NCBI RefSeq assembly: GCF_904830925.1
Contig: NZ_LR882967.1
Location: 3,490,106 to 3,554,105, forward strand
Length of the DNA: 64,000 bases
Direction: 5' to 3'
Origin: Planktothrix pseudagardhii
GTDB taxonomy: Bacteria > Cyanobacteriota > Cyanobacteriia > Cyanobacteriales > Microcoleaceae
Made by a program: the position numbers and the translations under genes. Below the pieces are notes generated by a model. It had not been told where the DNA came from. It saw only the letters and a list, made by a program, of their open reading frames with translations, and did no database searches. Below, one piece after another: positions 26,115-45,970 of the stretch (position 1 is its first letter; each line of letters starts with the position of its first letter).

Positions 26115-28346
26115 ATGGCAGCGAAATTCCCAAAATTTGATCAAGGTCTGGCTCAAGACCCAACCACTCGCCGAATTTGGTACGGGATTGCCACGGCCCA
26201 TGATTTTGAAAGCCATGATGGCATGAACGAGGAAAATCTCTATCAAAAGATTTTTGCCTCCCATTTTGGTCATTTGGCAATTATCTTTTTATGGACATCC
26301 GGCAACCTGTTCCATGTCGCTTGGCAAGGAAATTTTGAACAGTGGATTCGAGATCCCCTGCACATTCGTCCCATTGCCCATGCCATTTGGGATCCTCAAT
26401 TTGGCAAACCGGCGGTGGAAGCCTTCTCCCAAGCCGGAGCTATAAACCCCGTTAATATTGCCTATTCGGGCGTTTATCATTGGTGGTATACCATTGGGAT
26501 GAGAACTAACGCCGAGCTTTATCAAGGCGCTGTGTTCCTCCTGCTTTTGGCGGCATTGTTTTTGTTTGCGGGCTGGTTACACCTTCAACCCAAGTATCGT
26601 CCGAGTTTGTCTTGGTTTAAGAATGCGGAGTCTCGCTTAAACCACCACTTAGCGGGTTTATTTGGGGTCAGTTGTCTAGCGTGGACAGGCCATTTAGTTC
26701 ATGTTGCCATCCCTGAATCCCGTGGCCAGCACGTCGGATGGGATAACTTCTTGACCACGTTACCCCATCCAGCCGGACTCAAACCCTTCTTTACTGCAAA
26801 TTGGGGGGTTTATGCCCAAAATCCTGATACAGCACGGCACGTTTTTGGCTCATCGGACGGGGCAGGAACGGCGATTTTAACGTTTTTGGGTGGGTTTCAT
26901 CCCCAAACTGAATCGTTATGGTTGACGGATATTGCCCATCACCATTTAGCGATCGCAGTCATCTTTATTATTGCGGGTCATATGTACCGAACCAACTTCG
27001 GTATTGGCCACAGTATTAAAGAGATGTTGAACTCGAAAGATCCGTTGTTTGGGGTTCCCACCGAAGGACAGTTCAACTTACCCCACCAAGGTTTGTATGA
27101 TACCTACAACAACTCCCTGCACTTCCAGTTAGGAATTCACCTGGCTGCGTTGGGTGTGGTGACATCGCTGGTGGCGCAGCATATGTATTCGATGCCACCC
27201 TATGCGTTTATCGCCAGGGATTATACAACCCAAGCGGCGCTGTATACCCATCATCAATATATTGCTGGGTTCCTCATGGTCGGAGCCTTTGCCCATGCTG
27301 CCATCTTCTGGGTACGGGACTATGACCCCGACCAAAACAAAGGCAACGTTTTAGATCGGGTTTTGAATCACAAAGAAGCGATTATTTCTCATTTAAGTTG
27401 GGTGTCTCTGTTTTTGGGATTCCATACCCTGGGTATATACGTTCACAATGATGTGGTTGTCGCCTTTGGGACACCGGAAAAGCAAATCTTGATTGAACCT
27501 GTATTTGCTCAGTTCATTCAAGCGGCTCACGGTAAAGCCCTCTATGCAATGGATGTGTTACTGGCGAACCCTGACAGTATTGCCCATACCGCTTGGCCGA
27601 ATAATGGGAACGTTTGGTTGCCGGGTTGGTTAGCAGCGATTAATTCCGGTAAGAATTCATTGTTTTTAACCATTGGCCCTGGTGATTTCCTCGTTCACCA
27701 TGCCATCGCCCTGGGTCTGCATACCACCACATTAATTTGTGTGAAAGGTGCGTTAGATGCTCGTGGTACTAAACTGATGCCTGATAAAAAAGACTTCGGT
27801 TTTACCTTCCCTTGTGATGGCCCTGGACGGGGTGGCACTTGTCAAACATCCGCTTGGGAGCAATCCTTCTTCCTGGCGACTTTCTGGATGTTGAATACCC
27901 TCGGTTGGGTAACGTTCTATTTCCATTGGAAGCATTTAGGGGTGTGGCAAGGAAACGTTGCTCAATTTAATGAAAGCTCCACCTATATTATGGGTTGGTT
28001 GCGGGATTACCTCTGGCTCTATTCAGCCCAGGTGATCAATGGTTACAACCCCTACGGAACCAGTAACCTCTCGGTTTGGGCTTGGATGTTCCTGTTCGGA
28101 CATTTGGTATGGGCCACTGGGTTTATGTTCCTGATTAGTTGGCGAGGTTATTGGCAAGAACTGATTGAAACGTTAGTTTGGGCGCATGAACGCACCCCTC
28201 TGGCGAACCTCGTGATCTGGAAAGATAAACCAGTTTCGCTGTCAATTGTTCAAGGATGGTTAACGGGTTTAGTTCACTTTACGGTGGGCTATATCCTCAC
28301 CTATGCTGCGTTTCTACTGGCTTCAACGGCTGGGAAATTTGGCTGA
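26115..28346 (+). CDS. psaB: Photosystem I P700 chlorophyll a apoprotein A2 (PsaB); no psaA upstream
   Basis: It is near-identical to canonical PsaB throughout ([42 protein letters not shown] Fx-cluster loop, C-terminal [14 protein letters not shown]). The 555 nt upstream are non-coding. Confidence 0.95.
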
Positions 28347-28858: not shown

Positions 28859-28945
28859 ATGAGTCGCTATGTTATCAACATTCTAGCCAGCCATGACCTC
28901 AACGAGATTGCTGAGTATTTTGCCAACCACTATTTAACAGTTAGA
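28859..28945 (+). pseudogene. parE: ParE/RelE-family toxin, 5' remnant (first ~28 codons) truncated by the AT-rich insertion
   Basis: MSRYVINILASHDLNEIAEYFANH fits the ParE N-terminal consensus (M..Y.v.....A..DL..I..YIA). Beyond about codon 29 the reading frame is simply antisense to the C-terminus of the 28934-30451 gene and loses ParE similarity. Confidence 0.5.
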
Positions 28946-39500: not shown

Positions 39501-42500
39501 ATGATAGGTTGTAAAAATTAATAGTTCTGACGGAGATTTAAAATTTTGTAACTGATTTAAACACCGACTCAATTCAAGCTCCAATTCAGAGACATCGTTT
39601 CCCGTGAAATAAGCGATTTCAAGATAAGCTTGAGCAAGACAATAAGCTTCATCAATTCTCCCGGCTTCTTGAGCTTGTAAATAGCAAGTTTTGAGAGGAG
39701 ATAAAATCTGCTTTAAGGAAGTTTTCCAAGGTTTAATAAACCGATAAACCAGTTGTTTAACTTTGATAATTATTGCAAAATTTGCTTGTTTTTGCGATAA
39801 TTCTAAAGCTAATTCTCCCATTTGATTTCCGAACTCAATTTCCCCTTGCGTACAAAGAATAAATCCAAATACAGCATAGACAAAACTTGATAACGTTGTA
39901 TTTCCTTGTTGATAGGATAAATGAACCAGTTTTAAAACCCAAAATGGGAATTGTTTGGGAATTACCCGATAAGCAGAAGGAAAAGCAGAGGTTAAAATTC
40001 TAAATAAATTTACTAAATTAGTATTAGATAATTCGGGTAAATCTAATAATGCTAAGGGTGTTCTTCCCCCTAAATTTTTAATAAAATTATGCTTGAATTC
40101 CTGCCAACTTTCTTCACTAAAATTATCACCCCAGGTGAACCCTAATTGTTGACAAACAGCTAACGCAAGATTGACCGCATTGTGATCTTGATTTTGGCTC
40201 CTATAAGCTTGAATCATTAATTCATAAATTCTTACTTTATGCCCGAATATTTTAACATTTTCTAAAACAATATTTCCCCACTTGTGTAAATTTTCCCAAT
40301 CTTGGCTGAGATAAGCAATTTCTGCTGCTTCTGTGTATAATTCTAATGTTAATTGATAGTCTCGTTCCCAACTCTCCGTTACCAATAACCCCAGACCAAT
40401 CGCTAAATGTCCAATAGCTGTCGGATAGGCGGTGGCAATTTTCGCTTTTTGTCCGGCTATTAAATTAAATAAGGCTAATTGATCTCGTTCTTTTTGATCC
40501 TGAATTAAGCCTACTCCTAAATTGAGTTGATTAATGATATTTAATAAAACTTCGGTTGAAATTATATGTAAAATAATCTTAATGGATTGATTAAAATATT
40601 GTTTTTTGATTTGATTTAAAAGCGAATTTCCGATTTTTAAATGAGTCGCTTGTCGTTGATGAGTTGGAATTAAAAGATAAGCAGCTTGTTGAACTCGGTC
40701 ATGAATAAATTGGTATTTATCAATACCGGGCTGTAACAACGGTAAGGTTTCATTTGGATCAAAGTGTGGAGGGGAAAATACTTCAGTTTCTAAGGAATAA
40801 AAGGGATAAATATCTCTAGCAATAACAATAAATTGAGCCTGTAAAGCAATTTCTAAAGCTTTTAATGTTTCTAAATAAGTTTTTTCAGTTACGGTAGCTA
40901 AATCTACGGCATTAAATTGATTTCCTAAACAAGCCGCAATTTTTAAAATTTCTTGGGTGTCTGGAGGTAATTGTTGTAATTGATGAAGAATTAAATCTAA
41001 AATATTAGAGTTAATCGAACGGGTTTTAATTTGAGTTAAATTACATTGCCAACCTCCGAATAAATTTCGATTTTTTAAGGAAGATTGAGGCGGATTAAAC
41101 CAAATTAGTTCTTCTGTATATAAGGTTTGTAGAAATTGACGAACAAAAAAAGGATTTCCTTGAGTTTTTTGACTGACTAATTCTGCCAAAGGTTTAGCCC
41201 GGTCTAAGGAACAAACTAATGTTTCTGCTATTAGTTGATTAATCGCAGAATCTTCTAAAGCATTTAAAGGAATTCGATGTAAGGGAATTCCTGAATTTTC
41301 TAAGGTTTCTAAGATTTTAATTAAAGGATGTGTTTCCCCGATCTCGTCATCCCGATACGCTAAAATTAGCACTAAGGTTGGAGGTGTAGAATAAATATTT
41401 TGTTCAGGACTCATCAAAACCTGAATTAATCGTAAGGATTCAACATCTGCCCATTGTAAATCATCTAAAAAAATGACTAAGGGATGATGAGGTTTGGCAA
41501 AAGTTTGAATTAGCTTTTGAATTAAACGATTAAATTGATTCAGGTCAAGATTAACCTCTGATTCAGTCAGGGAAGACTGTTGATTTAATAAAACTTTCAG
41601 TTCAGGAATAACAGCCATTAAAACCGGGGCTTGATCTCCGAGTCCATTTAAAAGTTTCTTTTTCCAAGCTTCTACCTGTTCCAAAGGTTCAGTTAATACT
41701 TGTTGAATTAATTGTTTAATCCCTTGTACCCATCCCCAAAAAGGCGTATTCGTTTTAAATTGATCAAATTTGCCTGTGATAAAATAACTGTCTAAGGTGA
41801 CACAATGAGTTATAGGCAAAACTCCTGTTCCACAATATGCAACGGTTTGATAGAATTCTTGAACCAGGGAAGACTTGCCAATTCCTGATTGACCTGTAAT
41901 TACAATAATTTCTGATTGAGCCGTGTTCACAATCGAATTTAAACGCTCAATTTCTGGCTCTCGTCCATAAAATTTATTGGGAATAATAAATCGATCATTT
42001 AAGTCAATCGTCGCCAAAGGAAACGGAGGAATATCCCCCAGTTTTTCCCATTGTTCTAAACAATTTTCTAAATCATAGCGCAGTCCTAATGGAGTTTGAT
42101 AACGCTCCTCTGGATTTTTAGCCATCAATTTTAAAATAATATTATTGAGCATTATCGGTAAGGTCGGTTTAATTTCGCTTAAAGGCTGAGGAAGCAGGGC
42201 TAAATGAGCATGAATTAATTCTAGGGGATCAGAAGATGGAAACGGAAGTTTTCGAGTTAATAATTGATAAAGTGTTACGCCTAAAGAATACAAATCTGTG
42301 CGATAATCAATACCCCGATGGGTTCGTCCGGTTTGTTCGGGAGACATATAAGCTAAAGTTCCTTCTAATCCTTGAGAATTAACAACTTCTTGATGGGAAT
42401 GATTCAGTTGAATAGAAATACTAAAATCAATCAGTTGAACTTTCAAAGTTTCCGGGTGAATTAAAATATTTTGCAGTTTAACATCTTTATGAATCACCCG

Positions 42501-42866
42501 ATGTTGATACAATTGTTCTAAAATTTGAGTAATTTCAATGGCAATTTTTAATAATTCACTTAAGGTTAGTTCTCGCTGTACTAAATAATCGGCTAGTGAA
42601 ATATAGCCTTGATCAGCCATAATCAAGGCAAACCCATTACAATAGGGTTCCAAATCCAGAATCGGAACAATACCGGATATATTAAGAGCTTTGGCAATGC
42701 GATATTGATTTCTAAATTCAATCAAAGAGGGTACGGTTGGATATTCACTGCGTAATAGTTTAATCACAACCGGGTAACCATCAGACAAACGAATCCCACG
42801 ATAAACCAGTGTTCTCGAACCATTATAGATCGGGTTAAGAATCTGATAGCCAGGTAAAGTGATCAT
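36540..42866 (-). CDS. Giant multidomain signalling protein: Ser/Thr-kinase-like domain, AAA/STAND NTPase, TPR-like helical region, GAF, two PAS, class III adenylate/guanylate cyclase
   Basis: The kinase-like N-terminus (VVIKLL, HKDVKLQN, DFS, SPE), the P-loop ITGQSGIGKSSL and the GAF and PAS blocks are present. The C-terminal cyclase homology domain is FADIRDFTSLSE...GDEIMALFG...VNVASRIE. It is 2108 aa with no internal stops. Confidence 0.85.
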   Translation of the reverse strand: MITLPGYQILNPIYNGSRTLVYRGIRLSDGYPVVIKLLRSEYPTVPSLIEFRNQYRIAKALNISGIVPILDLEPYCNGFALIMADQGYISLADYLVQRELTLSELLKIAIEITQILEQLYQHRVIHKDVKLQNILIHPETLKVQLIDFSISIQLNHSHQEVVNSQGLEGTLAYMSPEQTGRTHRGIDYRTDLYSLGVTLYQLLTRKLPFPSSDPLELIHAHLALLPQPLSEIKPTLPIMLNNIILKLMAKNPEERYQTPLGLRYDLENCLEQWEKLGDIPPFPLATIDLNDRFIIPNKFYGREPEIERLNSIVNTAQSEIIVITGQSGIGKSSLVQEFYQTVAYCGTGVLPITHCVTLDSYFITGKFDQFKTNTPFWGWVQGIKQLIQQVLTEPLEQVEAWKKKLLNGLGDQAPVLMAVIPELKVLLNQQSSLTESEVNLDLNQFNRLIQKLIQTFAKPHHPLVIFLDDLQWADVESLRLIQVLMSPEQNIYSTPPTLVLILAYRDDEIGETHPLIKILETLENSGIPLHRIPLNALEDSAINQLIAETLVCSLDRAKPLAELVSQKTQGNPFFVRQFLQTLYTEELIWFNPPQSSLKNRNLFGGWQCNLTQIKTRSINSNILDLILHQLQQLPPDTQEILKIAACLGNQFNAVDLATVTEKTYLETLKALEIALQAQFIVIARDIYPFYSLETEVFSPPHFDPNETLPLLQPGIDKYQFIHDRVQQAAYLLIPTHQRQATHLKIGNSLLNQIKKQYFNQSIKIILHIISTEVLLNIINQLNLGVGLIQDQKERDQLALFNLIAGQKAKIATAYPTAIGHLAIGLGLLVTESWERDYQLTLELYTEAAEIAYLSQDWENLHKWGNIVLENVKIFGHKVRIYELMIQAYRSQNQDHNAVNLALAVCQQLGFTWGDNFSEESWQEFKHNFIKNLGGRTPLALLDLPELSNTNLVNLFRILTSAFPSAYRVIPKQFPFWVLKLVHLSYQQGNTTLSSFVYAVFGFILCTQGEIEFGNQMGELALELSQKQANFAIIIKVKQLVYRFIKPWKTSLKQILSPLKTCYLQAQEAGRIDEAYCLAQAYLEIAYFTGNDVSELELELSRCLNQLQNFKSPSELLIFTTYHQSLQILNGKLEGDTSLNFTGHAENGTIGTTEIGYSSQEIPFELSLNFMVLNYRLDRLQQAKEWSQQAECYLNKDTYFVLQPFFYCYQSLIDLAIYPELSSEDQVKISEKVTQNQEKLKAFSQGTPMNFSHLFYLVEAEFNHIQGDYIKAIEAYEQAIMLAKTYQFIQEEALAEELAAKFYLDWGKEKIARVYLIDAYYSYAHWGAFAKVKDLESRYPQLLNSILAQLVIPTTGTTISNNTTETIISSSHGGSAALDLATVTKASQALSQEIDLEQLLKRLIQVVIENAGAEKCCILLSKSGKLAIEAIASLNPINGGSIEIESLLKSVSVEQSNALPLLILNTVIQTQEFMILADARQESRYRNDPYLIEHQSKSILMTPIQNRGKLIGILYLENNLATAVFTPERLEVLKILFSQAAISIDNAKLYSQVRNNEQQMTQFLEGIPVGVAVLDPTGKPYFTNQKAQQLLKTKVTPGLFCEALSNIYQAYLNWCQQHQFDQLTPYCDLYNPTPDTTFILEVNQGEQTILLENWVTPTYDEEGDLMYAILAFQDITKRQQTELALRQAEEKYRSIFENASEGLFQTTREGHYISANPALAKILGYDSPWDLMSTVRNVEEQIYVDSQRRLDFIQLIDQQGEVSGFEFKAYRKDGSIIWISENARAVFNDKNELLYYEGFVVDITERKTAEEERLQFMAKLSELNHHLDEALDSEFELTDAAARFVPHEFLSFLGYESIVEVQLGAAVQKEMSILFADIRDFTSLSEDMTPEDNFKFINAFLSRMEPAIVENYGFIDKYIGDEIMALFGGSADDAVRAGISMISRLNEYNETRQRPERPPIKIGIGINTGGLMLGIVGGKNRLDSTVISDSVNVASRIENLTKNYGVSLLITHPTFMALENANEYAIRIIDRVKVKGKSDAVTVYEVFDSDLPEIKAGKLRTKTTFEYGLMQYYLERYSEAARLFQECLHHLPMDKVAQIYLERCLSKMF

Positions 42867-43060: not shown

Positions 43061-45970
43061 TCATGATAATTGATTCAGTGAGGGTCGTCCGATAGCCCCT
43101 GCAAATATCCAACCATCGGGTAATATTGCCCCTGTTAGGATTACTTCTGTGCCGTTGGCCTCATTAACAACAGCACCCTGAAGAGTAGCATAGGAAAGAT
43201 CAGCCTGTGTTAAATTTGTCCCACTCAAATTAGCATCCTTCAAATTAGCACGAACCAATTGCGCCTGACTCAAATCAGCATGACTGAGATCTGCACGACT
43301 CAAATCACAAGAATTCAATCGAGTCTGTTGTAAATTAGTGCCAACACATTTGACTCGCTGTAGATTAGCACCTGTCATGTTAGCTTGGCTTAAATTCGCC
43401 ACTACTAATTTAGCGTAATTTAAGTTAGCATGGGTGAGGTTGGTTTGTTGAAGATTCGCTCCAATTAAATTAGCATGACTTAAATTCACCCCCGTTAAAT
43501 CGAGAGCGGATAGATTTGCGCCTTGAAAATTGCGATCGCCATTCTTATATCTTCGCAGCAGTTCTCCGCCATCGGTGATGCTAATATCCCGTTGGGGGGG
43601 AAACCGTAAACGAAACGTTAAAGTATTTCCGCTTTCAATGACTCGTGCTAATTCTTCATAAAAAGGATAGGAACCTAAACCGCTTAACCTCAGCCAACCC
43701 CGTGAACGAGTCATCGCCACAAATAATTGATTACGGAAATTAAGATTATTTTCAGCAACCGCAATTTGATCTAAACCCACCAAATAAACCATATCAGCTT
43801 CATGTCCTTTCGCTCGATGAATACGAGAAATAGTTACCCCGCCTTCACACCAAAATTGATTCGCATGGGCATTATTAGAAGTCGGTTTGAGAATATTACA
43901 GTCCGGTGTTCCAGGGATAAAAATATCAATTCCTTGCTGCATTAAAAAGTTAGCAATCTTGGTTTCAAGTTCTATCGCTTCCCATCCCATTCCTAAAACA
44001 ATGACTAAAATTTCTCGACTGGGACGCAAGCCATCAATTTTTAAGTTATATAGAATGCGATCGCTTAAGGCGGTTAATTCTTCGGAACGAGAACGATAAG
44101 CTTCAAATTCAATTAAAGGTTTTTTCCATAACGCTGATACAGGATTAGGTGAATTGTGTTCAGGACGATAAAGGGTAATCGTTTCGCCCAATTTTAAAGG
44201 AGAATTGTGGGGATCATTTTCTGGTTCTTTCAAATTTGTTAATATGACTTTATACCCCATCGTTTCCCAATCTTCTGCCCACTTCATTCCGGTTAATAAT
44301 CCTTGCGGACGCAATAACCCCAAACCAATCCCATGAGCCGCCGTTAAAATCGGGGCTGGAATCCGATAACATCGAGACATAATCTCTGTTTTTTTAATTC
44401 CGTTGCCATATTCTCCCGTAACTAATTGTCCCCACTCATCTCCAAATAATTCACTCGCCGTCGGCACTTTTAAACTTTCTAAACTTTGAACTTCATCATA
44501 AGCCCAAATCAAGCGTTTTTGAGGAATTTCAGAATTATTGTCTTCTTCCCGATGAACAGGACGTAAGGCTTGATACGCCATCCAATAAAAGGGCTGTTTT
44601 CCCTCAAATTTTAGATCTTCCTCAACAATAAAATCCTGACCTTCATCAATTAAAATAGCATCAAAAATAGCGGGAATCGTTGCCGATGCTAATAAATGAT
44701 AACAAGCTTCTGCTAAGGCTTCATTCGCGTTTGAACGAGTTGTTTGTTGAACACTTTGGCTCCAAACTCCCGCAGCTTGACAAATGGTGCGATAAAAACC
44801 GGGTTGATCCTTTGCCCCCCAAGCATGAAGAACTTTTAATTTAGAATTCTGGGGATCATACCTGATTTGATTGCAACTAAATCGCCTTAACCATTGATCA
44901 ATTTGTTGTAAAATTGGATCATATAAACTCCGACTAAAAAATACAAACGCAATATCCCATTCAGGATTTTTCAGGTGCATTTGTGCTGCTTTTTGACACA
45001 GTAACACCGTTTTTCCTGAACCCGCAATTCCCCGAATTCGTTGTGGCCCTGGGGGGATCACTTTGGCAATTTGTTCCTGTTGTAAATCCAGTTCAGAAAT
45101 ACGTTGTCTAGCAATAGCTAAGACCGCACTGCGGGTTAAAGCGGTTTCTAAATCATCCGTTTGGCTGAAAAAAAAGCGACGAGTCGGTGGACGAAATAAC
45201 GGTGTTCCACTAATGACCGCCTTTAACAGTCCCCATTGTTCCTCAGAAAGTTCACTTCCCCGCGTGACTAACGGTGCATTCTCAATTTTTTCAATTAAAC
45301 TGGAATCTTGACCGTTGACAGGTGACGGTTCCGAGAAAAAGGGTGTGTTTGCTGTGATCGAAGATTCGACCCCCTTAAACCCCAGATCCTCTTGAAATAG
45401 AATAGGAGGAGAACTCGGCAACCGATCAAATCCCCGGCATTGCCATTGAGAGTGAAGAATGCGAGGTAAGGCGACGAGGACACGACCCGGAACCTTCTGA
45501 TGCAGAATCTCTTCTAAATTGCAATAGTCCAGTAGGGCAAAGAGTTGATGTTCTGCCTGTTGATAGGGGTTCGCCTGGGTCGTATAAAATTCTTGGAGTT
45601 CCCAACGATGACCTGTAATTCCCAGAATTTGCTCAATCGTTATTGATTTCACCTCAATAATAATTAATCCCAATTCTGCATCTACGATTAAAATATCCGG
45701 TTCTTTCCGAAAGGTTCCCAATTTTGAGAAAATCGGATAACGCCAATAGGCAATACAATCTCGTGGCTCAAAGCTTTGACAAATCGCCATCCAGACTTGA
45801 GATTCGGCTTTTTCTCCTGCCATAAACAGGGGTTCAGTAGTAATAAATTTACGATCTGGGGACAAAGATTCTCCCATTATTTTTAGGGTGTTGGGAACAG
45901 AGGAAAGGAGGAGACAAGGAGTAGGGTGCATCAGCGCGACTCGCCCACACCAACAACAGTCAACCCTCAA
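43061..45970 (-). CDS. NERD nuclease-related domain / SF1 (UvrD-like) helicase protein with C-terminal pentapeptide-repeat domain
   Basis: The N-terminal NERD-like block is EPDILIVDAELGLIIIEVKS. The helicase has motif I GIAGSGKT, motif II ILIDEGQDF and motif VI LFVAMTRSRGWLRLSG. The last about 170 aa are tandem A(N/D)L(S/T)x pentapeptide repeats. The true start is probably near 45878 (MGESLSPD). Confidence 0.75.
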   Translation of the reverse strand: MRVDCCWCGRVALMHPTPCLLLSSVPNTLKIMGESLSPDRKFITTEPLFMAGEKAESQVWMAICQSFEPRDCIAYWRYPIFSKLGTFRKEPDILIVDAELGLIIIEVKSITIEQILGITGHRWELQEFYTTQANPYQQAEHQLFALLDYCNLEEILHQKVPGRVLVALPRILHSQWQCRGFDRLPSSPPILFQEDLGFKGVESSITANTPFFSEPSPVNGQDSSLIEKIENAPLVTRGSELSEEQWGLLKAVISGTPLFRPPTRRFFFSQTDDLETALTRSAVLAIARQRISELDLQQEQIAKVIPPGPQRIRGIAGSGKTVLLCQKAAQMHLKNPEWDIAFVFFSRSLYDPILQQIDQWLRRFSCNQIRYDPQNSKLKVLHAWGAKDQPGFYRTICQAAGVWSQSVQQTTRSNANEALAEACYHLLASATIPAIFDAILIDEGQDFIVEEDLKFEGKQPFYWMAYQALRPVHREEDNNSEIPQKRLIWAYDEVQSLESLKVPTASELFGDEWGQLVTGEYGNGIKKTEIMSRCYRIPAPILTAAHGIGLGLLRPQGLLTGMKWAEDWETMGYKVILTNLKEPENDPHNSPLKLGETITLYRPEHNSPNPVSALWKKPLIEFEAYRSRSEELTALSDRILYNLKIDGLRPSREILVIVLGMGWEAIELETKIANFLMQQGIDIFIPGTPDCNILKPTSNNAHANQFWCEGGVTISRIHRAKGHEADMVYLVGLDQIAVAENNLNFRNQLFVAMTRSRGWLRLSGLGSYPFYEELARVIESGNTLTFRLRFPPQRDISITDGGELLRRYKNGDRNFQGANLSALDLTGVNLSHANLIGANLQQTNLTHANLNYAKLVVANLSQANMTGANLQRVKCVGTNLQQTRLNSCDLSRADLSHADLSQAQLVRANLKDANLSGTNLTQADLSYATLQGAVVNEANGTEVILTGAILPDGWIFAGAIGRPSLNQLS

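What the first reader, a model, noticed from the sequence alone, without database searches (positions are those of the whole stretch)
43061..45970. NERD nuclease / SF1 helicase fused to a C-terminal pentapeptide-repeat domain
NERD-plus-UvrD-like helicase proteins occur in anti-phage contexts (Nhi-like nuclease-helicases), but a roughly 170-aa C-terminal pentapeptide-repeat (A(D/N)L(S/T)x) beta-helix is not part of that architecture. Pentapeptide-repeat proteins such as Qnr and MfpA are DNA mimics, so a DNA-shaped domain tethered to a nuclease-helicase could act as an auto-inhibitor or a decoy sensor. The gene is adjacent to a giant STAND/kinase/cyclase gene.
Basis: partly seen in the sequence, partly recalled or inferred. 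Interest (0 to 1): 0.65.

Follow-up and report, generated by a model that had tools for sequence, protein, structure and literature searches.

The report
Cyanobacterial nuclease-helicase with pentapeptide-repeat tail

Summary
The ORF 43061..45970 (-) is real and uninterrupted. Homologues place the start at the ATG at 45877, giving 938 aa. All three domains were confirmed:
- **N-terminal nuclease:** PD-(D/E)xK/NERD fold with invariant D61, E75 and K77.
- **Motor:** SF1A UvrD-like helicase with all ATPase motifs invariant.
- **C-terminal repeats:** 27 uninterrupted pentapeptides forming a beta-helix.

The window is *Planktothrix pseudagardhii* chromosome. The tri-domain form is not rare. I recovered 246 full-length examples, and 329 species-representative genomes encode a relative, essentially all cyanobacteria. 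The fusion proteins form one clade nested among about 720-aa repeat-less NERD-helicases, some of which are plasmid-borne in *Deinococcus*, haloarchaea, *Nostoc* and *Leptolyngbya*.

The fused clade is chromosomal, tracks taxonomy and sits among housekeeping genes. All domains are under purifying selection (omega about 0.12-0.21). The giant kinase/cyclase neighbour is specific to the *Planktothrix* clade.

It is not an Nhi-family member, because Nhi has a DUF2075 SF1B motor. The repeat domain is only mildly acidic and carries a conserved lysine ladder and one conserved face. That argues for a docking or gating surface rather than a DNA-mimic decoy.

Verdict: a new, uncharacterised variant of a known nuclease-helicase kind, of moderate interest.

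The parts
43061..45877 (-). Complete gene as supported by homologues: 938 aa plus stop. The maximal ORF extends to the TTG at 45970.
   Evidence: ORF list. P0001 is 938 aa and 100% identical. Alignments start near MGESLSP.
45383..45856 (-). NERD / PD-(D/E)xK nuclease domain (residues about 8-165 of the 938-aa protein). The catalytic D61...E75-x-K77 is encoded at 45647-45697.
45092..45382 (-). Variable, partly disordered linker (residues 166-262) containing a conserved short helix motif (EQW..L..VISGTP).
   Evidence: Lowest conservation and highest omega, about 0.31. Low pLDDT.
43583..45091 (-). SF1A UvrD-like helicase core (residues 263-765). Walker A (GIAGSGKT) is encoded at 45008-45031. Walker B is DEGQD (411-415), motif III is YDEAQS (460-465), and motifs V/VI span 685-728.
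43526..43582 (-). Conserved connector and capping helix (residues 766-784; R763, E772, Y777, G780, R782, N783 and F784 are invariant or nearly so) joining helicase domain 2A to the beta-helix.
   Evidence: Alignment invariants. Helix 769-778 in the model.
43121..43525 (-). Pentapeptide-repeat beta-helix: 27 pentads in unbroken register (residues 785-919). The conserved basic ladder is K823 (pentad 8) and R841/K843 (pentad 12).
   Evidence: PF00805 at 116 bits. Register. A beta-strand every 5 residues in the model. PDB pentapeptide-repeat protein hits. Face analysis.

Best explanation
The gene encodes a stand-alone, ATP-driven nuclease-helicase. An SF1A (UvrD/Rep/AdnB-like) motor translocates on and unwinds DNA, and an N-terminal PD-(D/E)xK (NERD) domain cuts it.

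It belongs to a broad family of about 720-aa NERD-helicases, some of which are carried on plasmids. In one ancestral cyanobacterial lineage, a single fusion event added a C-terminal pentapeptide-repeat beta-helix, taken from the large cyanobacterial pool of such repeats. That fused form has since been inherited vertically as a chromosomal gene under strong purifying selection.

The repeat rod is joined to helicase domain 2A through a short, conserved connector and capping helix. Other SF1A helicases (UvrD, PcrA, Rep) carry their partner-binding C-terminal modules at this position. I therefore propose that the rod is a fixed docking or gating surface. It has one conserved face and an adjacent conserved Lys/Arg ladder. 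It would bind a conserved cellular ligand, either a protein partner or the nucleic-acid backbone, and so target or license the nuclease-helicase. I do not think it is an acidic DNA-mimicking decoy.

Shown: domain identities, intact motifs, single origin, distribution, synteny, selection and surface conservation. Inferred: enzymatic activity, translocation polarity, the ligand, and whether the cellular role is genome maintenance or restriction of foreign DNA.
For: - Domain identities.
- Catalytic and ATPase motifs are invariant in 84-86 homologues.
- The parent family without repeats gives 408 representative clusters at E<=1e-30, mostly about 700-750 aa.
- Repeat-less copies sit on plasmids among IS elements.
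- Fusion proteins are monophyletic in a neighbour-joining tree.
- 329 species-representative genomes hold relatives, all of the top 80 cyanobacterial apart from two probably mis-binned MAGs, and identity falls in step with taxonomy.
- The fusion is also present in unicellular Crocosphaera ATCC 51142, Rippkaea PCC 8801, Gloeothece PCC 7822, Pleurocapsa PCC 7319 and Cyanobacterium aponinum.
- Order-level synteny with housekeeping genes: HEAT and phosphoribosyltransferase flanks in one clade; ahcY-DedA-ExoD upstream in 28-31 of 82 loci.
- dN/dS is 0.13-0.21 for the repeat domain against 0.12-0.17 for the helicase.
- Outward positions of one beta-helix face are more conserved than those of the other faces (Mann-Whitney p=0.002). 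K/R occupies the i-1 position of pentads 8 and 12 in 88-98% of 192 non-identical proteins.
- The connector residues are conserved.
- That C-terminal modules of UvrD, PcrA and Rep bind partners is established knowledge and was not tested here.
Against: - No biochemical or genetic data exist for any member (literature searches found nothing).
- The conserved hydrophobic positions on face 0 could be structural, for example a particular corner or turn type, rather than an interface.
- The interdomain geometry of the AlphaFold model could not be inspected, so intramolecular docking (auto-inhibition) is not excluded.
- The full-length model is only moderate (pLDDT 72.6, pTM 0.62).
- The parent family's plasmid habit and its strong match to a PADLOC 'Helicase' model leave a defence role open.
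- The tree is a simple neighbour-joining tree without support values.
Confidence: 0.5

Rival explanations
1. The protein is an anti-phage nuclease-helicase of the single-gene type, as Nhi, Hna and Hhe are. Its repeat domain is a DNA-shaped mimic that plugs the enzyme's own DNA channel (auto-inhibition), or acts as a decoy that a phage DNA-binding protein engages to release the enzyme.
For: - Pentapeptide-repeat proteins such as MfpA and Qnr are DNA-sized rods that mimic DNA (established knowledge). Weak sub-threshold NCBIfam similarity to Qnr and MfpA was found.
- The parent family is carried on mobile elements.
- There are strong PADLOC hits to 'Helicase' PDLC03002 and to the candidate 'NERD+UvrD' model.
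- Nhi also carries an accessory C-terminal domain.
- Pentapeptide repeats are fused to Orc/Cdc6 proteins in predicted conflict systems (PMC10853773).
- RM genes lie downstream in about 10 of 82 loci.
Against: - The repeat domain is only mildly acidic (median -3) and has a conserved basic ladder.
- It is under purifying selection equal to that on the catalytic domains, with about 68% pairwise identity across orders. That is not what is expected of a surface in an arms race.
- The fused clade is chromosomal, vertically inherited and flanked by housekeeping genes, not defence genes.
- There is no Nhi or PF09848 match.
- The connector is conserved and short rather than a flexible tether.
Confidence: 0.2
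2. The repeat domain works as Qnr and MfpA do, binding DNA gyrase or topoisomerase IV. It thereby recruits the nuclease-helicase to topoisomerase-DNA complexes, for example to process trapped cleavage complexes or to couple unwinding to supercoil relief.
For: - The only mechanistically understood bacterial pentapeptide-repeat proteins (Qnr, MfpA, AlbG, McbG) act on gyrase (established knowledge).
- Their structures are detectable sequence relatives of this domain (QnrB1 1e-10, MfpA 3.5e-10).
- High conservation of the repeat surface fits a conserved housekeeping partner.
Against: - All Qnr and MfpA NCBIfam scores are far below their cut-offs (36 against 240; 32 against 360).
- The closest repeat relatives are generic cyanobacterial proteins (HetL/All3740, Np275/276, Alr5209).
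- The 27 pentads run without the loop insertions that QnrB1 needs for activity (the loop requirement is from established knowledge).
- The protein ends shortly after the last pentads, so no C-terminal dimerisation helix is evident.
- There is no gyrase gene linkage in any locus.
Confidence: 0.12
3. The repeat domain is a passive structural element, such as an oligomerisation module, a spacer or a stabiliser, with no specific ligand. The enzyme behaves like its repeat-less relatives.
For: - Repeat number varies from 16 to 30 pentads across the clade.
- Repeat-less relatives are evidently functional as a family.
- Pentapeptide repeats are extremely abundant and promiscuously fused in cyanobacteria (established knowledge).
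Against: - Specific outward-facing residues (K823, K843 and the face-0 positions) are conserved in 88-98% of members, in both the short and the long forms.
- omega is as low as for the catalytic domains.
- All 246 full-length members of the fused clade recovered here retain the domain.
Confidence: 0.13

Closest known systems
Repeat-less 'nuclease-related domain-containing DEAD/DEAH box helicase' (NERD + UvrD-like helicase, about 720 aa; e.g. WP_017870386 on a Deinococcus wulumuqiensis plasmid, WP_017291580 on Leptolyngbya boryana pLBX, WP_014030751 on Haloarcula pHH126)
   Same: Same N-terminal NERD domain, linker and SF1A core over the full length, at 27-51% identity. Stand-alone gene.
   Different: No pentapeptide-repeat domain. 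Scattered across phyla and archaea, with copies on plasmids among IS elements. The window's protein belongs to a derived, monophyletic, chromosomal cyanobacterial clade.
Nhi (SERP2475, nuclease-helicase immunity, Staphylococcus epidermidis)
   Same: A single polypeptide with an N-terminal PD-(D/E)xK nuclease, an SF1 helicase and an extra, poorly understood C-terminal domain. Works alone.
   Different: The Nhi motor is DUF2075/PF09848, SF1B (Dda/Upf1/DNA2-like). This one is SF1A UvrD-like, with no PF09848 hit and no PADLOC model named Nhi among its hits. Nhi homologues are horizontally spread and 72% have a defence-gene neighbour within 20 genes. This clade is vertical and sits in housekeeping context.
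AddA / RecB / AdnB helicase-nucleases
   Different: In those enzymes the nuclease is a C-terminal RecB-family domain, and they act in hetero-oligomers (AddAB, RecBCD, AdnAB). Here the nuclease is an N-terminal NERD domain, no partner gene is conserved, and no sequence-level match to them was found.
Cyanobacterial stand-alone pentapeptide-repeat proteins (HetL/All3740, Np275/Np276, Alr5209, Rfr32)
   Same: Closest sequence relatives of the repeat domain (All3740 6e-40, Np275/276 4e-39). Consensus A(D/N)LXX type.
   Different: Those are small, single-domain proteins. All NCBIfam equivalog cut-offs are missed. This domain is fused to an enzyme and has its own conserved Lys ladder.
Qnr / MfpA / AlbG DNA-mimic pentapeptide-repeat proteins
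   Same: Same right-handed quadrilateral beta-helix fold. Weak sequence similarity.
   Different: Scores are far below the family cut-offs. There are no loop insertions, no evident dimerisation helix, only mild acidity and a conserved basic patch.
GajB (Gabija) and PADLOC 'Helicase' PDLC03002 / 'C3a187 NERD+UvrD' models
   Same: UvrD-like helicase homology. PDLC03002 matches residues 276-787 of the 969-aa ORF at 8.6e-78.
   Different: GajB matches cover only the C-terminal 50-60 residues of the motor, and no GajA is nearby. I could not establish which system PDLC03002 belongs to, and no defence partner gene is adjacent.

Membership tests
NERD / PD-(D/E)xK nuclease superfamily | Restriction-endonuclease-like alpha/beta fold | tested here: met
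NERD / PD-(D/E)xK nuclease superfamily | Catalytic E...D...(D/E)xK residues present and conserved | tested here: met
   E25, D61, E75 and K77 are invariant in 84-86 homologues.
NERD / PD-(D/E)xK nuclease superfamily | Match to Pfam PF08378 (NERD) | tested here: inconclusive
   No hit for this sequence at E<=0.1. Three of 15 aligned homologues hit, best 2.5e-8, and precomputed hits are present on many homologues. PADLOC RTasNERD-Hel matches at 2.5e-7 over the catalytic core.
NERD / PD-(D/E)xK nuclease superfamily | Metal-dependent nuclease activity | not testable with these tools
   Needs biochemistry.
SF1A UvrD/Rep/PcrA-like helicases | Walker A, Walker B (DExx), motif III, motifs V and VI | tested here: met
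   GIAGSGKT, DEGQD, YDEAQS, RIHRAKG.EA and TR..GW are invariant.
SF1A UvrD/Rep/PcrA-like helicases | Pfam or structural match to the UvrD-like core | tested here: met
SF1A UvrD/Rep/PcrA-like helicases | 3'-5' translocation or unwinding | not testable with these tools
   Inferred from the structural neighbours only.
Pentapeptide-repeat proteins (PF00805) | Tandem A(D/N)LXX pentads scoring above the Pfam threshold | tested here: met
   116 bits against a cut-off of 20.2. 27 pentads in register.
Pentapeptide-repeat proteins (PF00805) | Right-handed quadrilateral beta-helix | tested here: met
Nhi (nuclease-helicase immunity) | DUF2075/PF09848 SF1B helicase domain | tested here: not met
   No PF09848 hit at E<=0.1. 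No PADLOC model named Nhi among the hits. The best structural neighbours are SF1A.
Nhi (nuclease-helicase immunity) | Horizontal spread and defence-gene neighbourhood | tested here: not met
   Housekeeping flanks and taxonomy-tracking identity.
Nhi (nuclease-helicase immunity) | Protection against phage | not testable with these tools
   Needs infection assays.
Qnr / MfpA DNA-mimic pentapeptide-repeat proteins | Score above the NCBIfam equivalog cut-off | tested here: not met
   Qnr 35.9 against 240; MfpA 32.2 against 360.
Qnr / MfpA DNA-mimic pentapeptide-repeat proteins | Strongly electronegative, DNA-like surface | tested here: inconclusive
   Net charge has a median of -3 (IQR -4 to -1), with a conserved K/R ladder. 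No electrostatic surface could be computed without coordinates.
Qnr / MfpA DNA-mimic pentapeptide-repeat proteins | Binding to or protection of DNA gyrase | not testable with these tools
   Needs biochemistry.
Gabija (GajA/GajB) | Full-length GajB match plus an adjacent GajA OLD-family nuclease | tested here: not met
   Only 50-60-residue C-terminal matches to GajB models. No GajA is adjacent. The nearest ABC/OLD-like ATPase lies about 12.6 kb from the gene's stop, with four genes between.

The most novel reading that the evidence does not exclude
The pentapeptide-repeat rod is a cis-acting targeting or licensing module. Through its conserved face and lysine ladder, it would couple a nuclease-helicase to a specific conserved cellular machine or DNA structure, for example gyrase or topoisomerase, a replisome or SSB complex, or a branched or supercoiled DNA. 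That would give the first enzymatically anchored function for the very large and mostly unexplained cyanobacterial pentapeptide-repeat family. It would also be an example of a mobile defence-type nuclease-helicase domesticated into a lineage-wide genome-maintenance enzyme.
Probability: 0.2. Interest if true: 0.7.

Novelty: new variant of a known kind. Interest (0 to 1): 0.42.

Why it matters
Cyanobacteria encode dozens of pentapeptide-repeat proteins per genome, and almost none has a known function. The only well-understood bacterial examples act on DNA gyrase.

This fusion is conserved, vertically inherited and under purifying selection. It links such a repeat rod covalently to a DNA motor and a nuclease, which ties the fold to DNA transactions in a new enzymatic context. 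It also supplies concrete, mutable residues (K823, K843 and the conserved face) for testing what the rod binds.

The finding also shows how a plasmid-borne, defence-like nuclease-helicase family can give rise to a stable chromosomal lineage. The practical value is modest, because the proteins are already in the databases under domain-level names. The architecture is a variation on known themes rather than a new principle.

Tried and rejected
1. **Frameshift or separate genes: rejected.** The ORF is uninterrupted, and 246 independent proteins have the same three domains.
2. **Nhi membership: rejected.** The helicase class differs, and there is no PF09848 or Nhi hit.
3. **Functional link to the giant kinase/cyclase gene: rejected.** The neighbour is present only in the Planktothrix clade.
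4. **Defence island: not supported.** PADLOC on eight neighbours gave only generic kinase, cyclase and HEAT domain matches, plus one AriA/PtuA-like ATPase about 12.6 kb away.
5. **Conserved operon partner: none found.** De novo clustering of flanking ORFs in 82 loci gave only housekeeping synteny.
6. **Sequence search of the PDB.** It hit only pentapeptide-repeat proteins and no helicase.
7. **Phage genomes.** There was no tblastn match to the nuclease-helicase core.
8. **Promoter and terminator scan.** It found no more sites than expected by chance.
9. **Literature.** Four searches for a description of the fusion found nothing.
10. **AFDB Foldseek comparison.** I wanted to see whether independent models agree on interdomain geometry, but the library was unavailable.
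11. **Docking of the beta-helix in the DNA channel.** This could not be examined, because the structure tool returns no coordinates or PAE.
12. **Identity of the system behind PADLOC PDLC03002 'Helicase'.** This could not be established.
Full report
**1. Observation**

The minus-strand ORF 43061..45970 exists exactly as reported: 969 aa from a TTG, with no internal stop. The database protein for this gene (P0001, *Planktothrix pseudagardhii*, from a 6.6-Mb contig) is 938 aa and 100% identical. All homologue alignments begin near MGESLSP, and an ATG lies at 45877. I therefore take 43061..45877 as the gene and number residues on the 938-aa protein, which is the ORF numbering minus 31.

**2. The three domains**

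*Pentapeptide repeats.*
- PF00805 scores 116 bits against a cut-off of 20.2.
- There are 27 pentads in unbroken register, residues 785-919.
- The AlphaFold model has a beta-strand every five residues at pLDDT 85-96.
- Thirty solved pentapeptide-repeat proteins are sequence relatives. The best natural ones are All3740/HetL and Np275/276.
- The domain is about 135 aa, not about 170.

*Helicase.*
- UvrD_C_2 is above its cut-off.
- Walker A (GIAGSGKT), Walker B (DEGQD), motif III (YDEAQS) and motifs V/VI are invariant in 84 homologues.
- No solved helicase is detectable by sequence alone.

*Nuclease.*
- Pfam NERD does not hit this sequence at E<=0.1. It does hit 3 of 15 aligned homologues, best 2.5e-8, and it is precomputed on many others.
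- A PADLOC NERD-helicase model matches the catalytic core.
- E25, D61, E75 and K77 are invariant.

All three domain assignments are confirmed, and both catalytic centres look intact.

**3. How common the fusion is and where it came from**

- The 120 best hits of the first homology search all have the same architecture, at 55-85% identity, in Oscillatoriales, Coleofasciculales, *Microcoleus*, *Symploca* and others.
- A scan of one genome per species found 329 genomes with a relative. The best 80 are cyanobacteria of several orders, apart from two MAGs labelled otherwise that are probably mis-binned. Identity falls in step with taxonomy: *Planktothrix* 74-84%, *Limnoraphis*/*Lyngbya* about 60%, Coleofasciculaceae and *Microcoleus* about 57%, Pleurocapsales, Chroococcales and *Spirulina* 53-56%.
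- Searching with the most divergent fused member (*Cyanobacterium aponinum*, UniProt K9Z892, 'NERD domain protein') recovers the fusion in *Crocosphaera subtropica* ATCC 51142 (annotated 'rfrA family pentapeptide repeat'), *Rippkaea* PCC 8801, *Gloeothece* PCC 7822, *Pleurocapsa* PCC 7319, *Gloeocapsa* PCC 73106 and *Geminocystis*.
- In all, I recovered 246 full tri-domain proteins.
- An exhaustive search with only the nuclease-helicase part found 1689 representative clusters, 408 of them at E<=1e-30. Most full-length ones are about 700-750 aa and have no repeats.
- In a neighbour-joining tree of the nuclease-helicase region, all repeat-bearing proteins form one clade nested among repeat-less ones. 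That indicates a single fusion event.
- Repeat-less relatives lie on plasmids of *Deinococcus*, haloarchaea, *Nostoc*, *Leptolyngbya* and *Calothrix*. They are often next to IS elements or other nucleases and helicases, and PGAP names them 'nuclease-related domain-containing DEAD/DEAH box helicase'.
- No relative was found in 50,697 phage records.

**4. Context**

The window is ordinary chromosome. It contains a psaA/psaB-family gene, ispG, ctpA and a metal ATPase. Around the gene lie petC, petA, an alpha/beta hydrolase, a divergently transcribed HEAT-repeat gene, and downstream a phosphoribosyltransferase.

It is Pkinase + AAA_16 + GAF + PAS + class III cyclase.

Comparing 82 loci gave the following:
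- The HEAT and phosphoribosyltransferase flanks are shared by *Planktothrix*, *Limnoraphis*, *Lyngbya* and *Capilliphycus*.
- The giant gene is present only in the *Planktothrix* clade. It is an insertion into an older syntenic block, not a partner.
- In other orders the upstream side is ahcY-DedA-(ExoD), in 28-31 loci, and the downstream side is variable. That variable side includes a C5 methylase, with or without a Bse634I-like enzyme, in about 10 loci.
- No gene family accompanies the fusion throughout, so it is a stand-alone unit.
- PADLOC on eight neighbours found no adjacent defence component.
- Promoter and terminator scans were uninformative.

**5. Selection and surface of the repeat domain**

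Nei-Gojobori dN/dS between clean *Planktothrix*-clade pairs gave the values below.

| Region | omega |
|---|---|
| Nuclease | 0.12-0.19 |
| Linker | about 0.31 |
| Helicase | 0.12-0.17 |
| Cap + repeats | 0.13-0.21 |

Mean pairwise identity of the repeat domain among non-*Planktothrix* members is 68%, close to the nuclease (71%) and the helicase (76%). This does not look like an arms-race surface.

I used the known geometry of the fold (four pentads per coil; positions i-1, i+1 and i+2 face outward). On that basis:
- The face formed by pentads 1, 5, 9 and 13 has lower outward-position entropy than the other faces. Values are 1.44-1.82 bits, against 1.69-2.32 for the adjacent face and 1.92-2.79 for the other two (Mann-Whitney p=0.002).
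- The adjacent face carries K/R at the i-1 position of pentads 8 and 12 in 88-98% of 192 non-identical proteins, in both the short (unicellular) and long (filamentous) forms. These residues are K823 and K843 here, and R841 is also basic.
- Net charge after the cap has a median of -3 (IQR -4 to -1).
- The connector between helicase domain 2A and the first coil is short and conserved (R763, E772, Y777, G780, R782, N783, F784).

**6. Interpretation**

*What is shown.* This is a single ancient fusion of a generic cyanobacterial pentapeptide-repeat rod onto a NERD-UvrD-type nuclease-helicase. It has been retained vertically under purifying selection, with intact catalytic motifs and a specifically conserved repeat surface.

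*What I infer.* The enzyme unwinds and cuts DNA. The rod is rigidly attached at the position where UvrD, PcrA and Rep carry their partner-binding C-terminal modules (established knowledge). I propose that it is a docking or gating surface for a conserved ligand, either a protein or a nucleic-acid backbone.

- The charge is mild and a basic ladder is conserved.
- Selection is purifying.
- The context is housekeeping.
- Nhi itself is a different helicase class, DUF2075/SF1B (bioRxiv 10.1101/776245).

Whether the cellular role is genome maintenance or restriction of foreign DNA cannot be decided here. The plasmid habit of the parent family and its strong match to a PADLOC 'Helicase' model (8.6e-78) keep defence on the table. 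The vertical, conserved behaviour of the fused clade argues for domestication.

**7. Limits**

- No coordinates or PAE were available, so docking of the rod on the motor is untested.
- The full-length model is only moderate (pLDDT 72.6, pTM 0.62).
- The AFDB comparison could not be run.
- The tree has no support values.
- The conserved hydrophobic positions on one face may be structural rather than an interface.
- No literature on the fusion was found. That reflects the held library only.

**8. Verdict**

The protein is a new, uncharacterised variant of a known kind of nuclease-helicase. It is already present in many databases under domain-level names. It is of moderate interest, mainly as a handle on pentapeptide-repeat function.

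Noticed in passing
window 30698-33316 (+): An 872-aa protein with strong matches to eukaryotic Major Vault Protein domains (Vault repeats 2.3e-66, MVP shoulder 1.1e-53, Vault_2, Vault_3 and Vault_4). A full-length MVP homologue in a cyanobacterium is unusual and may deserve its own look.
   Followed up: no
window 28934-30451 (-): A 505-aa AAA_15/AAA_21 ABC-type ATPase matching PADLOC AriA (3.5e-27), PtuA and mad3 models. It may be a fragment or component of a PARIS- or Septu-like defence system, about 12.6 kb from the finding. Its partner gene was not examined.
   Followed up: partly
window 36540-42866 (-): The 2108-aa Pkinase + AAA_16 + GAF + PAS + class III cyclase gene lies between the nuclease-helicase gene and the phosphoribosyltransferase gene only in the Planktothrix clade. 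Related genera have the same flanks without it, so it looks like a lineage-specific insertion.
   Followed up: yes
L001 10778-12894; also L017, L023, L033, L040, L046, L062: A C5 DNA methylase lies within 5 kb downstream of the fusion gene in about 10 of 82 loci, and 5 loci have a Bse634I-like restriction enzyme. This may be a local hotspot for RM insertion, or one inherited event. I did not resolve which.
   Followed up: partly
plasmid records AP018319.1 281309-283510 (L083), AP018205.1, AP018291.1: Repeat-less paralogues of about 730 aa on Nostoc, Leptolyngbya and Calothrix plasmids are annotated 'pentapeptide repeat protein' or 'rfrA'. Their lengths leave no room for the repeat domain, so the name was probably transferred from the fused chromosomal relatives.
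   Followed up: partly
L007 (Planktothrix sp. GU0601_MAG3), L011 (Lyngbya aestuarii BL J), L068 (Planktothrix sp. UBA8402): In these assemblies the longest ORF over the gene is only 761, 524 and 563 aa, although tblastn covers nearly the whole protein. These are frameshifts, pseudogenes or assembly errors. I excluded them from the dN/dS conclusions.
   Followed up: no
L006 (labelled Candidatus Obscuribacterales) and L069 (labelled Candidatus Gracilibacteria): Contigs in MAGs assigned to non-cyanobacterial taxa carry a 54-75% identical copy of this cyanobacterial gene. These are most likely mis-binned cyanobacterial contigs rather than horizontal transfer.
   Followed up: no
window 26115-28346 (+): A 743-aa PsaA/PsaB-family photosystem I core gene. 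The only ORF of 120 aa or more immediately after it is 122 aa, so it may be a lone psaB-like paralogue, unless its partner lies upstream beyond the region I listed at that threshold.
   Followed up: no
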